Shown here piece by piece: positions 46,354 through 50,528 of a stretch of 64,000 nt of DNA. A model generated the notes under the pieces. It was not told the DNA's origin. It was given only the letters and a program-made list of their open reading frames with translations, and did not search any database. Source of the stretch: Escherichia coli (GTDB taxonomy: Bacteria; Pseudomonadota; Gammaproteobacteria; Enterobacterales; Enterobacteriaceae); assembly GCF_050920415.1 (NCBI RefSeq), contig NZ_CP169309.1; one strand, 5' to 3'. Numbering within the stretch: position 1 is the first letter of the stretch; every line of letters starts with the position of its first letter. Both the position numbers and the translations under genes were made by a program.

Positions 46354-46574
46354 GCTGCACCTCCGAGATGCTTCATGTTTTTTCCGGAGCGAAAGGCTAT
46401 AAGCGGCATACTGACGCGGTAATTACGGCCCAGCGGTTCACAAATCACCTTCTGACATTCACGGTCAACCAGGCTAACACGTAGAACATGCCCTGCAGGC
46501 GTGGTGTACCACTGACCCGGTCGAGGACAACGGAAAGTCTGATTGGTAAACCGTTTGAAAATATTCCGGATCAT
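46350..46574 (-). CDS. hypothetical protein, ATGA-coupled to the O-like gene
   Basis: 74-aa ORF; overlaps neighbours by 4 nt on both sides. Confidence 0.4.
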   Translation of the reverse strand: MIRNIFKRFTNQTFRCPRPGQWYTTPAGHVLRVSLVDRECQKVICEPLGRNYRVSMPLIAFRSGKNMKHLGGAA

Positions 46575-47722
46575 TTGCGCCCCCTTACCTCGGAAGAGTT
46601 CAGCGACGAATGAATAAGACGGGCAAGAAATGCCGCATCGTTAATTCGGTCATACAGACTTACAGCCAGCGGTGATTCAGCTTTTTCCAGCATGGGATAA
46701 AGCTGCTGCAACCAGACCTGATGAATTGATGAAATGTAGGAATAGAGTACGCTGGCGTTATGTGCAACGTCGCTCGGTACAGCGGGCTTTGAAAGCTGTT
46801 TCTCCATCTGGTTAAAGGCATTGATGTATGCCTCTTTGAACTGGGCAGCACGTTTACCCGTGAAACCCATAGCAAGAAACGCAAAACCGTCGCGGGTTAT
46901 TTGATAGCAAGGTAGTTTGCGGCCTGTGCAATCGGTGTAATCACTCACCGAAAAATTGCGGGCAGTGAATGATGCGGAGCATTCAAGCGTGCGGATCTTT
47001 TTCAGTACATCGTCATGACGTTTGGAGAAGAAGTTGGCAACAGCCAGGGATGAAGTAACAGCCTGACCATCAACGATGGCAATTTCAGGTTGAGTGAGGG
47101 TTGGGATCGTAGCCATGATGGCAGCCTCTTTGGTGATTTTTAATAACTCACCACCAAGGCTTTCCACGACCTTATTGGTGGTGAGACGTACAGGGGTGGA
47201 AATACCGGTCACCAAAGAACCCGGCCCAACCGAAGTTGGCCCTGCACGCCCCACCATAATTTGGGCGTAATGCTGCTCATGACACAAAAAAACCGCAAGA
47301 GCGCGGTTGTGCGCTTTGGTGAATTCCGGGTTTCCACGCCCGGCACCCGCTTTATAAGGTGCCTGAACAGTGTAACGTCCCGGAATGGCAGAATCAATGT
47401 GCTGGTGGTCCTTCACACTCAACAAAATCACGCCTGAATTTCCACAAAGGGCTAAAGCACTCATGCGGGTAGTCTTTGCGAAGATAGATAACGCGCTGTG
47501 TTTCTGGCTCCCAACGAATAACATGAACATAAAGTCCTCTTCCGTCACGAAACCAGCGGTTAAGTTCCTGCACAACTCGCCCCCCACAGTCAGGTAAAGT
47601 TCTCTGTGGTTACTTACAGCCAGGAGATTTGGTAATCTGCATTCATGCCGTAACAACAGGTGTTCAGCGACGCTGACCACCAGCTGTTGCGACAAATGGT
47701 TATTTGCCGTTAAACTGTTCAT
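46571..47722 (-). CDS. Rha-family regulatory protein with ~200-aa N-terminal extension
   Basis: C-terminal ...IAIVDGQAVTSSLAVANFFSKRHDDVLKKIRTL... Rha domain; start ATG overlaps the stop of the CII-like gene (ATGA). Confidence 0.6.
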   Translation of the reverse strand: MNSLTANNHLSQQLVVSVAEHLLLRHECRLPNLLAVSNHRELYLTVGGELCRNLTAGFVTEEDFMFMLFVGSQKHSALSIFAKTTRMSALALCGNSGVILLSVKDHQHIDSAIPGRYTVQAPYKAGAGRGNPEFTKAHNRALAVFLCHEQHYAQIMVGRAGPTSVGPGSLVTGISTPVRLTTNKVVESLGGELLKITKEAAIMATIPTLTQPEIAIVDGQAVTSSLAVANFFSKRHDDVLKKIRTLECSASFTARNFSVSDYTDCTGRKLPCYQITRDGFAFLAMGFTGKRAAQFKEAYINAFNQMEKQLSKPAVPSDVAHNASVLYSYISSIHQVWLQQLYPMLEKAESPLAVSLYDRINDAAFLARLIHSSLNSSEVRGRK

Positions 47723-48282
47723 GCGTTAGTTTCTCCACAGACACAAAACGCCACGACGCCCGGAGCTGCACACTCGCGGGCGTCACTCTTTTCTGGAGCG
47801 CAAAAGATTTTGTAGACCAGTGCTGCATGCTCCTGGAGCTTCGAAATTGACAGATACAACTCATCATTAATTGCTGTCTGCTCGTGTGGCTCCACTACCC
47901 CATCTTCGATTGCCGAACGAATCTGCTTTGAGTAACTCCCGATCTGTTCGATGACTTCCAGCAGGCGCTGGTTTATATCGGCGTTCTCTACTTCCTCAAT
48001 TTCAGGAAGCGATACAAACACCCCACCAGCAGACTGTGCGACAGCATCCGCAATGTAGTGAGTGCCAGCCGCGCGCTGTAAAATCATTGCCCATCCCAGC
48101 GGGAAAATCTGATCGCCATCTGCACGAAGGCGGTTGAATAAAGCGTTCTCTGTTACATCCAGCCACTCAGCAGCTTCAGCGTAACCCCCCGGCAACGCCG
48201 CGATAGTTTTTCTGACAGCTTTCACGTACCACTCAGGCTGTTTTTCTACTTTCCAGTGATGCTTACCCACGGTTAGCCTCAT
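47719..48282 (-). CDS. CII-like regulatory protein (CP76-type)
   Basis: 187 aa, first gene after cro in the rightward operon; weak family recall only. Confidence 0.45.
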   Translation of the reverse strand: MRLTVGKHHWKVEKQPEWYVKAVRKTIAALPGGYAEAAEWLDVTENALFNRLRADGDQIFPLGWAMILQRAAGTHYIADAVAQSAGGVFVSLPEIEEVENADINQRLLEVIEQIGSYSKQIRSAIEDGVVEPHEQTAINDELYLSISKLQEHAALVYKIFCAPEKSDARECAAPGVVAFCVCGETNA

Positions 48283-48313: not shown

Positions 48314-48514
48314 TTAATCTTTCGGATAGATATCCGGTCTTAAGTCAGATTTCGTAATTGCACCTGACGTGCATTGCTCAAGTTTTTTAGCCAGCACAAA
48401 ACTGGCTTTTTTATAACCATTGAAAACCAGCCGTAAGTAGCCTGGTGTTGAGCCAACTTTTCCGGCCAACTCGCCCTGCTGTTCTTTGGTTAAAGAGTCC
48501 CAATACGCTTTCAT
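48314..48514 (-). CDS. cro: Cro-like HTH repressor
   Basis: MKAYWDSLTKEQQGELAGKVGSTPGYLRLVFNGYKKASFVLAKKLEQCTSGAI... 66 aa; divergent from cI. Confidence 0.7.
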   Translation of the reverse strand: MKAYWDSLTKEQQGELAGKVGSTPGYLRLVFNGYKKASFVLAKKLEQCTSGAITKSDLRPDIYPKD

Positions 48515-48604: not shown

Positions 48605-49279
48605 ATGAAAACAGTCCATGACATCCGGCGGTCTAACGCCAGAAAACTGAGAGATGGTGTTGGCGGGAATTCTTCCTTTGCCACCATGATTGATCGCGAA
48701 CCAACCCAGACCAGCAGGTTTATGGGAGATGGTGCTACTAAAAATATCGGTGACAGCATGGCACGGCACATCGAAAAATGTTTCGACCTGCCTGTCGGAT
48801 GGCTTGATCAAGAACACCAGACAACGAACATCACAAAAAAACCTGATGTTTCAATCACTAATAAACAAATAACGTTAGTCCCTGTCATATCATGGGTACA
48901 GGCCGGAGCATGGAAAGAAGTTGGCTATTCTGAGGTTGATTTGAGCACAACAGAAACATATCCCTGCCCTGTACCCTGTGGCGAAATGACTTATATATTG
49001 AGGGTGATTGGTGATTCAATGATTGATGAGTACCGTCCGGGGGACATGATTTTTGTCGATCCAGAAGTACCAGCCTGCCACGGCGATGACGTTATTGCAT
49101 TGATGCACGATACAGGTGAAACCACCTTCAAAAGGTTGATAGAAGACGGGACACAGCGTTATCTCAAAGCATTAAACCCCAACTGGCCTGAGCCTTACAT
49201 TAAGATAAACGGTAATTGCTCTATCATTGGTACAGTTATTTTCTCAGGAAAACCAAGAAGATACAAAATTAAAGCCTGA
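48605..49279 (+). CDS. cI: CI repressor (HTH plus S24 LexA-like peptidase domain)
   Basis: C-terminal GDSM...K autocleavage motifs (VIGDSMIDEYRPGDMIFVD...); 224 aa. Confidence 0.85.
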   Translation: MKTVHDIRRSNARKLRDGVGGNSSFATMIDREPTQTSRFMGDGATKNIGDSMARHIEKCFDLPVGWLDQEHQTTNITKKPDVSITNKQITLVPVISWVQAGAWKEVGYSEVDLSTTETYPCPVPCGEMTYILRVIGDSMIDEYRPGDMIFVDPEVPACHGDDVIALMHDTGETTFKRLIEDGTQRYLKALNPNWPEPYIKINGNCSIIGTVIFSGKPRRYKIKA

Positions 49280-49292
49280 TCAATGTCTATGA

Positions 49293-49315
49293 ACCTGCTT
49301 CGGCAGGTTTTTTTA
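49293..49315 (+). terminator. cI terminator
   Basis: acctgcttcggcaggt plus ttttttt. Confidence 0.55.
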
Positions 49316-49365
49316 TACTTGACAATGTACCATTAAGATACATAATGTACCTGCATAAGATATCG
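49316..49365 (+). promoter_or_regulatory. candidate pL/OL
   Basis: ttgaca-17-ataatg, overlapped by ATGTAccattaagaTACAT operator-like palindrome sharing half-sites with OR. Confidence 0.45.
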
Positions 49366-49474
49366 AACAGGCAGGACGCCCACGAAGTAGCCGTCCGGGG
49401 CATACGAAGACCGGAATGGTTCGTAAATAAAAAAGCGCCCAAGTGGACGCTTCACTTTTGAACTGGATTTATAA

Positions 49475-49684
49475 TCAATTATTTTCTTCATAAATGTTTT
49501 GTAATGTATTTATGAGATTTGGTATTTCTTTTATGGGAAAAGAATATATTGGACTTTCGATAATTTTATCAGATTCAAATGGTGGTTGTTTGCAGGACAG
49601 TTGAACTATAACTGAATTATGATCTTTAACTGGCACACAGTACCAACCACATACATCAAAAACAGGAGTATTTTGATTATCCAT
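49475..49684 (-). CDS. hypothetical small protein, low GC, rexAB-position inserted gene
   Basis: MDNQNTPVFDVCGWYCVPVKDHNSVIVQLSCKQPPFESDKIIESPIYSFPIKEIPNLINTLQNIYEENN with gagga RBS; ~30% GC island. Confidence 0.4.
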   Translation of the reverse strand: MDNQNTPVFDVCGWYCVPVKDHNSVIVQLSCKQPPFESDKIIESPIYSFPIKEIPNLINTLQNIYEENN

Positions 49685-49989
49685 TATGTCCTCGACAACT
49701 AAAAACACTGCGTACAAACCTCAAAAGCAGGGAGTTATTTATAAAATTTCATAAAGAATAATTACTGATAGCGACAATTCATTGTTCTTGAATTTTGAAA
49801 AATAGCAAGACAAAACAATGTAAACTTATTTAAGAAAAGTTCTTATTATGTAAACAAAACAACCAATTCGTTATATAGGAAAAACAAATAGTACGCAAGA
49901 AAATATTCAACAGGGGTATTACATTCAACCATAAGAGTAATCGTCTCTTTGGTAACTAATACCGAACATTTTATTGTAACACGTCGTAT

Positions 49990-50510
49990 GGCACATGCGT
50001 CGTTAGCGGTCTGGGGACGTTAAAGGGGACAATCCACTCCTTGCTCGGGCAAACAAACCAGGTAGCCGGAATGTGCAAGTCAATGATGATGCTGATAAGA
50101 CGCCTAACCAGCGTGGCGATCCGGTTTGACGCCTGGGAAGAGACCAGGGTGCAACGATGAGGGCATTTATGGAGCCGCGACAAAGTGTGGTGCCATAACT
50201 GGCTAAGTGCTCTCAGCGTTGTGGTAATCCGCGAAATGGCGCGGCGGTAAGTATGGCGGGGTTACTCTTTCCCCGTTGAGGACACCGGATTGTCAGGTTG
50301 ACCATACGCCTGAGTGACAACCCCACCACAACAGCCACTGCTTTGGCGGTACCAGCTTGTACCCTTGCTTCCGGCTGGTACCGTCCTTTTTACAAAACAG
50401 AGAAGAGCATCACCGGACGACGGGCTCATAACCCAATCCATCCGGGCGGCTGCCACCGCAGGTGTTCTTCTCTGTTTTGTGGAGAAACCAACCGGCCTTG
50501 CAGGGTCGAT
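49990..50510 (+). other. GC-rich structured noncoding leader of the early-left operon (no N gene)
   Basis: No ORF >=60 aa on + strand; hairpins ggtaccagc-16 nt-gctggtacc plus T tract (~50333-50372) and caaaacagagaaga...tcttctctgttttg (~50392-50480). Confidence 0.4.
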
Positions 50511-50528
50511 ATGATGAGGAGCAGCAAA

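What the first reader, a model, noticed from the sequence alone, without database searches (positions are those of the whole stretch)
49366..49970. Reverse-oriented low-GC small gene in the rexAB position between cI and the early-left operon
Lambdoid phages place superinfection-exclusion genes (rexAB, sieB and similar) just downstream of cI. Here a ~500-bp island at ~30% GC carries a 69-80-aa ORF on the opposite strand (49475-49684, RBS gagga). Its transcript would run antisense into the cI terminator/pL region. The product has no obvious family and could be an exclusion factor or a regulator of pL.
Basis: partly seen in the sequence, partly recalled or inferred. Interest (0 to 1): 0.55.

Follow-up and report, generated by a model that had tools for sequence, protein, structure and literature searches.

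The report
Prophage cargo gene, distant BssS relative
The small backwards-facing gene next to this E. coli prophage's repressor is real and is a short, very divergent relative of the biofilm regulator BssS; phages of gut bacteria repeatedly carry genes of this family in the same backwards orientation beside their immunity genes.

Summary
Window 49377-49970 is a 594-bp stretch missing from an otherwise collinear relative. Its AT-rich part (29% GC) carries a 69-aa ORF on the minus strand (49475-49684, RBS GAGGA). An intrinsic terminator follows at 49453-49432.

An ORF of this size is not rare by chance there (18% of simulations). Conservation shows it is a gene: dN/dS is 0.12-0.19 at near-saturated dS, with no indels against ~80%-identical copies elsewhere.

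The product does have a family. Pfam, NCBIfam and PADLOC miss it. A profile search of 1.8 billion proteins links it to phage-borne BssS-family proteins (E 7e-6; hhalign 97.9%), and those match PF13991 and canonical BssS. It lacks the family's C-terminal ~15 residues.

In 8 further prophage lineages the BssS-like gene faces against the phage genes beside it. In 7 it sits just beyond cI or cro; in one it lies in the late region. The window gene lies downstream of pL (49319-49346, with a repressor operator), so this is not the rexAB arrangement.

Best reading: a self-contained accessory gene expressed in lysogens that modulates host physiology. Exclusion or pL regulation is untested and has no positive support. 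It is a new member of a known kind, of modest interest.

The parts
48605..49279 (+). Context: cI-type repressor (YmfK/CohE type, HTH plus Peptidase_S24)
   Evidence: Pfam PF00717 E 1.3e-26 and phrog_4; annotated ymfK in the identical prophage
49291..49310 (+). Context: intrinsic terminator of cI
   Evidence: 8-bp stem followed by a T-run
49319..49346 (+). Context: pL-like promoter TTGACA-16-CATAAT, with repressor operator TGTACC-N5-GATACA at 49326-49342
   Evidence: 11 of 12 consensus matches. The operator pattern occurs only 3 times in 64 kb: twice between cro and cI, and once here (repeat D2).
49353..49431 (+). pL leader segment (49% GC over 49377-49474). It is absent from the empty-slot relative L005 from ~49377, but shared with e14 of K-12 up to ~49424 and with L007.
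   Evidence: Alignments; composition
49432..49453 (-). Intrinsic terminator facing the small gene (GAAGCGTCCACTTGGGCGCTTT followed by TTTATTT). It shields pL and cI from antisense read-through.
   Evidence: 9 pairs, 5 of them G-C, then a T-run on the minus strand. The same stem with a different loop occurs in L007, which carries different reverse-oriented cargo.
49475..49684 (-). 69-aa gene for a C-terminally short BssS-family protein (pI 4.4, 8.0 kDa)
   Evidence: dN/dS 0.12-0.19, no indels, 23 of 41 differences at third codon positions. Library-wide HMM hit to P0007 at E 7e-6; P0007 passes the PF13991 threshold. hhalign 97.9%. AF2 model with pLDDT 86.5.
49689..49693 (-). Ribosome-binding site GAGGA, 4 nt before the ATG
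   Evidence: Read directly from the sequence. The divergent copies have GGAGGG at the same place.
49685..49970 (-). AT-rich (29% GC) non-coding upstream region that should hold the gene's promoter. Candidates: TTGAAT(49928-49923)-17-TATTTT(49905-49900), and TTGCTA(49808-49803)-16-AACAAT(49786-49781).
   Evidence: My own PWM scan. The 49900-49970 segment is the best-conserved upstream part among island copies. The TTGCwA block is weakly conserved in the ~80%-identical non-phage copies. The 32-aa ORF at 49830-49928 is broken by single-base indels in L037, so it is not coding. The promoter is not demonstrated.

Best explanation
The island is a self-contained accessory ('moron') cassette in the cargo slot just downstream of pL in a YmfK/CohE-immunity lambdoid prophage of E. 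coli. It consists of an AT-rich promoter region, an RBS and a 69-aa gene, and it ends at an intrinsic terminator that protects pL and cI. The product is a small acidic cytoplasmic protein with a four-stranded beta-sheet packed against a C-terminal helix. It is a very divergent member of the BssS family, with a shortened C-terminus. Shown: the gene is real and under purifying selection; it belongs by remote homology to the phage-borne branch of the BssS family; and BssS-family genes in 8 further prophage lineages all face against the flanking phage genes. Seven of those lie next to cI or cro and one lies in the late region. Inferred: because the gene converges on pL, it can be transcribed freely while the repressor keeps pL off (lysogeny), and it is shut down by colliding transcription when pL fires (induction). 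By analogy with E. coli BssS (YceP), a stress- and biofilm-induced small protein whose loss alters biofilm formation, indole and AI-2 signalling and colonisation resistance, the protein most likely changes the lysogen's physiology. It would do so by binding a host partner rather than acting as an enzyme. The partner is unknown.
For: Insertion/deletion with sharp junctions against L005, and other cargo in the same slot. Low GC. Terminator. pL and its operator lie upstream of the island. The full island is in 29 of 5426 complete E. coli genomes. In the ~80%-identical copies in other loci, only the ORF and RBS are conserved. dN/dS is 0.12-0.19 at dS of about 0.9-1.0, and length is invariant. Profile search of 1.84 billion proteins: P0007 at E 7e-6 and P0010 at 3.4e-4. 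P0007 scores 31.6 bits on PF13991, above the 27-bit threshold. hhalign: window type against phage BssS type 97.9%, E 5e-13; phage type against canonical BssS 97%, E 8.7e-11. The only PHROG hit of the window ORF (phrog_10846, E 0.31, in register) is the family that phage BssS proteins hit at 1e-49 to 1e-57. G13, W14 and L61 are invariant across the whole family. Contexts: L035 from Atlantibacter has cI, terminator, pL, reversed bssS-like gene, then yfdP, exactly as here. L028 is the same with other early-left genes. L029/30, L010 and Salmonella phage F1055 also have it beyond cI. Klebsiella L033/34 and E. coli L039/40 have it reversed just beyond cro. Serratia L031/32 has it reversed between hicAB and the lysis genes. 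Non-phage copies sit at the end of an EtpA/HMW1C-type adhesin cluster with a LuxR-type regulator, which fits a surface or biofilm theme. Phenotypes of BssS: PMC3646849, which cites Domka et al. 2006. General principle that accessory loci are expressed in lysogens: abstract of PMC7067206.
Confidence: 0.6

Rival explanations
1. The protein is a superinfection-exclusion or anti-phage defence factor expressed from the prophage.
For: The gene occupies a variable cargo slot beside the immunity genes. From general knowledge, such slots in temperate phages often hold defence genes (rexAB, sieB, BstA of BTP1). Its orientation is compatible with expression in lysogens. The family is mostly phage-borne outside the canonical chromosomal bssS.
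Against: No PADLOC hit even at E 10. No membrane segment or enzymatic motif; it is an 8-kDa acidic soluble protein. Close homologues also sit in non-phage adhesin islands on plasmids and chromosomes. The only studied relative, BssS, has biofilm and signalling phenotypes, not phage ones (PMC3646849). No paper in the searched library links BssS to phage resistance.
Confidence: 0.2
2. The functional unit is the antisense transcription or RNA, not the protein. Transcription from the island opposes pL and damps leaky early-left expression, stabilising lysogeny.
For: The gene converges on pL. The same convergent geometry with pL or pR recurs in several lineages.
Against: Purifying selection acts on the protein, with a third-position bias. 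Between divergent copies only the ORF and RBS are conserved, not the flanks. The family also occurs where there is no pL or pR. A terminator stops the transcript about 85 nt short of pL. Relatives with an empty slot keep the same immunity genes.
Confidence: 0.08
3. It is an orphan immunity protein against a contact-dependent or other polymorphic toxin. This was suggested by the two-partner-secretion gene next to the homologues.
For: It is a small, AT-rich, ORFan-like gene. Homologues lie downstream of a 'two-partner secretion domain' protein.
Confidence: 0.03
4. It is a decaying, functionless passenger ORF.
For: It is rare (29 of 5426 genomes). Several database variants are frameshifted at the C-terminus (P0004, P0005, P0011, P0012). 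An ORF of this size is not unusual by chance.
Against: dN/dS is 0.12-0.19 across a dS of about 1, with exact length conservation in three lineages. The RBS is kept. Homology is detectable down to ~30% identity, with a confident common fold.
Confidence: 0.05

Closest known systems
Phage-borne 'bssS family protein' (phrog_10846; e.g. Salmonella phage F1055 gp37, and E. coli WP_001422786.1 as annotated by PGAP)
   Same: Homologous by hhalign at 97.9%, E 5e-13, with the same predicted beta4-alpha fold register. It has the same genomic habit: a single small gene facing against the early operons, just beyond cI or cro. In Atlantibacter L035 it sits between pL and yfdP, exactly as here.
   Different: Only 17-33% identical. 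The window type is 69 aa rather than 83-86 aa and lacks the conserved tail (R/K-x-S/G-D/G ... H). It has three conserved cysteines (C12, C16, C31) that the others lack. No curated HMM recognises it.
[quoted passage not shown]
   Same: Same family through the phage-type intermediates. It is a small acidic cytoplasmic protein with the invariant G-W motif and helix leucine.
   Different: The direct profile comparison is not significant, and identity is 13%. BssS is a core chromosomal gene next to dinI, not a prophage cargo gene. The function of BssS is known only from phenotypes (PMC3646849).
Lambdoid 'morons' (promoter-gene-terminator cassettes, e.g. lambda bor/lom and HK97 morons; from general knowledge)
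   Same: Presence/absence polymorphism between collinear genomes, deviant base composition, its own terminator, and an orientation that uncouples it from lytic transcription.
   Different: It lies in the pL leader rather than in the late region. Its promoter has not been shown.
lambda rexAB / sieB
   Same: Neighbourhood of the immunity region, and possibly expression in lysogens.
   Different: rexAB are co-oriented and co-transcribed with cI, upstream of oL/pL. This gene is on the opposite strand and downstream of pL. There is no sequence or model similarity.
e14 ymfJ/ymfI and the 'ECs1072 family' gene in the same slot of sister prophages
   Same: The same cargo slot downstream of the same pL. 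ymfI and the ECs1072-family gene are also reverse-oriented, and L007 shares the shielding terminator hairpin.
   Different: No DNA similarity beyond the shared hairpin in the slot alignment, and different lengths (113 aa and 144 aa); the proteins themselves were not compared with the 69-aa product.

Membership tests
BssS family (Pfam PF13991; NCBIfam NF008958; phrog_10846) | Scores above the curated threshold of the family HMM | tested here: not met
   No PF13991 hit at E<=1. No NCBIfam hit. phrog_10846 scores only E 0.31, though in the correct register.
BssS family (Pfam PF13991; NCBIfam NF008958; phrog_10846) | Statistically supported homology to recognised members (profile-profile or transitive) | tested here: met
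   HMM of the window type finds P0007 at E 7e-6 in 1.84e9 proteins. P0007 scores 31.6 bits on PF13991 against a 27-bit cutoff. hhalign to the phage BssS group is 97.9%, E 5e-13, and that group matches canonical BssS at 97%, E 8.7e-11. The direct comparison to canonical BssS is not significant.
BssS family (Pfam PF13991; NCBIfam NF008958; phrog_10846) | Family-wide invariant residues (G-W at the start of strand 1, leucine in the C-terminal helix) | tested here: met
   G13, W14 and L61 are invariant across the window type, the phage type and E. coli BssS.
BssS family (Pfam PF13991; NCBIfam NF008958; phrog_10846) | Length of about 83-86 aa with a conserved C-terminal tail (…S/G-G/D … H) | tested here: not met
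   The protein is 69 aa and the alignment ends about 15 residues before the family's C-terminus.
BssS family (Pfam PF13991; NCBIfam NF008958; phrog_10846) | Effect on biofilm, indole or AI-2 signalling | not testable with these tools
   This needs genetics. Phenotypes are known only for E. coli K-12 bssS (PMC3646849, citing Domka 2006).
Prophage moron / lysogenic-conversion cassette | Present or absent between otherwise collinear phage genomes, with deviant composition | tested here: met
   L005 lacks 49377-49970. GC is 29% against 39-57% in the flanks. Alternative cargo occupies the slot in L006, L007 and e14.
Prophage moron / lysogenic-conversion cassette | Its own terminator and its own promoter | tested here: inconclusive
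   The terminator is clear. There are only moderate promoter candidates.
Prophage moron / lysogenic-conversion cassette | Transcribed from the repressed prophage | not testable with these tools
   No transcript data are available; this is inferred from the geometry only.
rexAB / sieB-type exclusion genes | Co-oriented with cI, between cI and oL/pL (rex), or homologous to RexA/RexB/SieB | tested here: not met
   The gene is on the opposite strand and downstream of pL. No Pfam, PHROG or PADLOC similarity.
CdiI-type orphan immunity protein | Adjacent cognate toxin domain (CdiA-CT) or an orphan toxin fragment | tested here: not met
   The neighbouring TPS protein is an EtpA-like repeat adhesin with an HMW1C glycosyltransferase and no toxin module. 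There is no ORF upstream of the gene in the window.

The most novel reading that the evidence does not exclude
BssS proteins may be, at root, a family of phage-borne, lysogeny-expressed host modulators. They are planted antisense beside the cI/cro switch so that they are on only while the prophage is repressed. The core E. coli bssS, which sits next to the SOS gene dinI, would then be a domesticated copy. The short cysteine-bearing window type would be a new sub-branch whose target could bear on the prophage's own decision (induction, exclusion, or biofilm-linked induction control) rather than on 'biofilm' as such.
Probability: 0.15. Interest if true: 0.6.

Novelty: new member of a known kind. 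Interest (0 to 1): 0.35.

Why it matters
BssS is often cited as a biofilm regulator, yet it has no known mechanism and no solved structure. Three results here give a new handle on the family. A divergent, unannotated branch exists. The phage branch is catalogued only as an unknown-function PHROG or a generic 'bssS family protein'. In every prophage lineage looked at (this one and 8 others), the gene faces against the flanking phage genes, and in 8 of the 9 it sits next to cI or cro. This pattern suggests simple experiments in lysogens and a possible phage origin or phage-related role for BssS. For annotation, WP_021559686.1 and its relatives can be relabelled from 'hypothetical' to 'BssS-family (short form)'. 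The finding is otherwise an ordinary example of prophage cargo.

Tried and rejected
1. Direct family scans of the ORF (Pfam, NCBIfam, PADLOC, PHROGs) gave nothing significant.
2. tblastn against 50,697 phage records gave no match for the window protein.
3. The orphan CdiI/immunity idea came from the TPS neighbour of the homologues. I rejected it once the neighbour proved to be an EtpA/HMW1C adhesin cluster.
4. Locus survey in viral contigs: the 8-sequence alignment was too diverse to seed a search. The P0007-type alignment found nothing. The single protein found only 11 near-identical prophage copies.
6. I looked for repressor operators inside the island that would imply cI control of the gene; there are none.
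7. The 32-aa ORF at 49830-49928 (-) and the 80-aa TTG-start version of the gene were rejected. Indels in L037 break the former, and conservation and the RBS begin at the ATG.
8. ORF length as evidence was rejected, since 18% of simulations reach 69 aa.
9. The plasmid copy L037 is not an independent insertion of the cassette, because it shares the pL and leader flanks.
10. Literature searches for BssS with prophage, phage resistance, 'BssS family' or PF13991 found nothing that describes phage-borne BssS genes.

Full report
**1. What is at the coordinates**

The window holds a lambdoid immunity region of the e14 (YmfK/CohE) type:
- a cI-like repressor at 48605-49279 (+), with HTH and Peptidase_S24 domains;
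- a cro-like gene, ymfT, at 48314-48514 (-);
- a CII-like gene, ymfL, at 47719-48282 (-).

After cI comes an intrinsic terminator (49291-49310). A near-consensus promoter follows at 49319-49346 (+), TTGACA-16-CATAAT. Its spacer carries TGTACC-N5-GATACA. This palindrome type occurs only three times in the 64-kb window: twice between cro and cI, and once here. I take this promoter to be pL.

From about 49400 to 49970 the GC content drops to 27-32%. The minus strand carries a 69-aa ORF (49475-49684) with GAGGA 4 nt before the ATG. An intrinsic terminator follows on the same strand (49453-49432). A 55%-GC non-coding stretch (49980-50520) then leads to yfdP, yfdQ and yfdR on the plus strand.

However, the island lies inside the pL transcription unit, antisense to it. 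It does not lie between cI and pL, where lambda keeps rexAB.

**2. The island is a true insertion/deletion in a cargo slot**

A sister prophage (L005, strain UTAK-23) is collinear through cI, the terminator and pL. It resumes at 'TTGTAACACG-CGTATGGCAC' (window ~49971), and about 20 unrelated bases replace 49377-49970.

Other sisters hold different cargo in the same slot:
- e14 of K-12 has ymfJ and the reverse-oriented ymfI.
- L007 has a plus-strand ORF and a reverse-oriented 'ECs1072 family' gene.
- L006 has other ORFs.

The left edge depends on the comparator. It is 49377 against L005, about 49425 against e14, and about 49455 against L007. L007 even shares the terminator hairpin, with the same stem and a different loop. 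That hairpin is therefore a feature of the slot. Its T-run is on the minus strand, so it stops transcripts of reverse-oriented cargo before they reach pL and cI.

**3. Is the ORF a gene?**

Length alone does not show it. In 5000 first-order Markov simulations of the island, 18% contained an ORF of at least 69 aa. Comparison does show it.

- The full island occurs in 29 of 5426 complete E. coli genomes at 93.5-100% identity and in 11 IMG/VR prophage contigs.
- A further group of chromosomes and plasmids carries copies about 80% identical. In these, similarity covers only window 49471-49696, that is the ORF plus its RBS. At most a weak patchy resemblance extends about 110 nt upstream.
- Between the window copy and these copies, dS is 0.88-1.00 and dN is 0.12-0.17, giving dN/dS of 0.12-0.19. 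Of 41 differences, 23 are at third codon positions, and the length is exactly 69 codons in all three lineages.
- PGAP calls the same ORF (WP_021559686.1, hypothetical).

The 80-aa TTG-start form and the 32-aa upstream ORF are not supported.

**4. What the protein is**

Pfam, NCBIfam and PADLOC give nothing. PHROGs gives one sub-threshold hit, to phrog_10846 at E 0.31. The word-indexed protein search found only close E. coli variants.

A profile search that read all 1.84 billion representatives found two 84-85-aa proteins: P0007 (E 7e-6) and P0010 (E 3.4e-4). P0007 passes Pfam's own threshold for PF13991, the BssS family (31.6 bits against 27).

The profile-profile comparisons are:
- window type against nine phage-borne BssS-family proteins: 97.9% probability, E 5e-13 over 62 columns;
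- those nine against sixteen canonical BssS proteins: 97.0%, E 8.7e-11;
- window type against canonical BssS directly: not significant, E 0.09.

phrog_10846 turns out to be the phage BssS family. P0014 and P0091 hit it at 1e-57 and 1e-49, and E. coli BssS hits it at 5e-5.

G13, W14 and L61 are invariant across all groups. The window type stops about 15 residues before the family's conserved C-terminal tail.

I file the protein as a remote, C-terminally short member of the BssS family. One defining feature (a direct HMM score) and one typical feature (the C-terminal tail) are not met.

**5. The genomic habit of the family**

Every prophage context I retrieved for BssS-family genes shows the gene facing against the phage genes around it.

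| Locus | Organism | Arrangement |
|---|---|---|
| L035 | Atlantibacter | cI, terminator, pL-like promoter, reversed bssS-like gene, yfdP, yfdQ (the window's architecture) |
| L028 | E. coli | the same arrangement, with RdgC-type early-left genes |
| L029/L030 | not determined (Logan read-archive assemblies) | convergent with the repressor |
| L010 | metagenomic assembly | beyond cI |
| L016 | Salmonella phage F1055 | beyond cI |
| L033/34 | Klebsiella | reversed, between cro and the early-right replication genes |
| L039/40 | E. coli | reversed, between cro and the early-right Rha, ash and replication genes |
| L031/32 | Serratia | reversed, between hicAB and the lysis genes |

Thirteen complete E. 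coli genomes carry a copy that PGAP annotates as 'bssS family protein'; the two examined (L039, L040) have the cro-side arrangement.

Outside phages, the window-type gene sits at the end of an EtpA-like adhesin cluster, on IncF plasmids and on chromosomes. That cluster comprises a TPS repeat protein, an HMW1C-type glycosyltransferase, DUF2919 and a GerE regulator. The canonical bssS is a core gene next to dinI.

**6. Most likely mechanism**

Shown: a real gene, in the BssS family by remote homology, forming a discrete cassette in a cargo slot, antisense within the pL unit, and followed by a shielding terminator.

Inferred:
- With pL repressed in the lysogen, nothing opposes transcription of the gene. 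When pL fires, convergent transcription should suppress it. This gives lysogen-specific expression without a dedicated regulator. The recurrence of the same geometry next to pL or pR in several lineages fits this reading. It also fits the general observation that accessory loci are the expressed part of prophages (abstract of PMC7067206).
- The product probably acts as BssS does, as a small binding protein that shifts host behaviour. For E. coli BssS the reported phenotypes are biofilm formation, indole and AI-2 signalling, stress induction and colonisation resistance in mice (PMC3646849). The mechanism of BssS is not known, so this step is weak.

The promoter has not been identified. The simple scan finds none on the minus strand upstream of the ORF. 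My PWM scan gives two candidates:
- TTGAAT-17-TATTTT (49928-49900), in the best-conserved upstream segment;
- TTGCTA-16-AACAAT (49808-49781), partly conserved in the divergent copies.

**7. Rivals**

- Exclusion or defence cannot be excluded, because the slot is of the right kind. But there is no positive evidence, and the gene also lives in non-phage adhesin islands.
- A purely RNA-level or antisense role is contradicted by protein-level selection, by conservation limited to the ORF, and by the terminator.
- An orphan immunity role is rejected, because the neighbouring cluster has no toxin module.
- A dead passenger gene is unlikely, given dN/dS and homology retained to about 30% identity. 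Still, several database variants are frameshifted at the C-terminus.

**8. Novelty and score**

The BssS family and the phage 'bssS family protein' are already catalogued (Pfam, NCBIfam, and PHROG as 'unknown function'), and morons are a textbook concept. Two things are new here. One is the assignment of this unannotated 69-aa ORFan group to the family. The other is the consistent antisense orientation of BssS-family genes in prophages, mostly beside the immunity genes. The literature searches did not turn up that pattern.

This is a new member of a known kind. It is useful for annotation and gives a lead on BssS biology, but a specialist would not find it surprising. Interest is 0.35.

Noticed in passing
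window 47174-47362 (-), inside the annotated ORF 46571-47722 (-): Rfam finds a C4 antisense RNA (RF01695, 83.6 bits, 47174-47261) and isrK (RF01394, 67 bits, 47286-47362), plus a weak c4 target a1b1 hit. All lie within the N-terminal half of the 383-aa 'Rha family' ORF that PGAP annotates. The real Rha/Ant-type protein probably starts at an internal Met (the 'MATIPTL…' stretch). The upstream part is then a P1/P7-like c4-type RNA immunity module on top of the cI/cro switch, and the annotation over-extends the ORF.
   Followed up: partly
window 49975-50528 (+): A 55%-GC stretch of about 550 nt lies between the island and yfdP, with no annotated gene and no Rfam hit. It folds unusually well as RNA (z -3.97 on the plus strand, -3.02 on the minus strand). 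It contains a terminator-like hairpin followed by a T-run (GGCGGTACCAGC…GCTGGTACCGTC-CTTTTT, 50346-50392) and then a hairpin of about 25 bp (about 50393-50480). Early-left transcription may therefore need antitermination, perhaps RNA-based. Covariation was not tested.
   Followed up: partly
window 50218-50324 and 49981-50224: Pieces of that leader are widespread mosaic modules. Window 50218-50324 matches at about 92% an unannotated stretch about 250 nt upstream of dicB in Qin-type prophages, including BL21 and K-12 derivatives (L008 2501-2607). Window 49981-50224 matches at about 83% a stretch abutting a phage tRNA-Arg between portal and terminase genes in other prophages (L009).
   Followed up: partly
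slot downstream of pL: L005, L006, L007 and L041 compared with window 49377-49970: The position just after pL in YmfK-immunity prophages is a cargo hot spot. It is empty in L005, holds ymfJ/ymfI in e14, holds a reverse-oriented ECs1072-family gene in L007, and holds other ORFs in L006. The minus-strand terminator hairpin (window 49432-49453) is shared between the window and L007 despite their different cargo.
   Followed up: partly
L002-L004 and L012-L014 (E. coli plasmids and chromosomes): An EtpA-like two-partner-secretion adhesin cluster carries the ~80%-identical homologue at its 3' end. In it, the 636-aa HMW1C-type glycosyltransferase is annotated as 'cobalt ABC transporter permease', which looks like a misannotation. 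The same segment of about 10 kb is present on both the chromosome and an IncF plasmid of strain TUM1881.
   Followed up: no
L037 (plasmid p1054c, 197 kb, strain GPEC1054): A copy of the pL-island-leader segment (93.5% identical) lies on a large plasmid. It sits directly after artAB-like AB5 toxin genes and a disrupted holin, and next to an excisionase and an IS3 element. This looks like a rearranged prophage or phage-plasmid fragment.
   Followed up: no
L015 (E. coli K-12 1120701-1121487): Canonical bssS lies immediately downstream of, and co-oriented with, the SOS gene dinI. From general knowledge, dinI-like genes are common prophage cargo, so this pair could be a domesticated phage remnant. 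This was not tested.
   Followed up: no
window 38290-38543 (-) and 59618-59940 (+): tRNA-Arg(tct) and tRNA-Met lie inside the prophage region. Three tandem tRNA-Leu(cag) genes lie to the right of the prophage.
   Followed up: no
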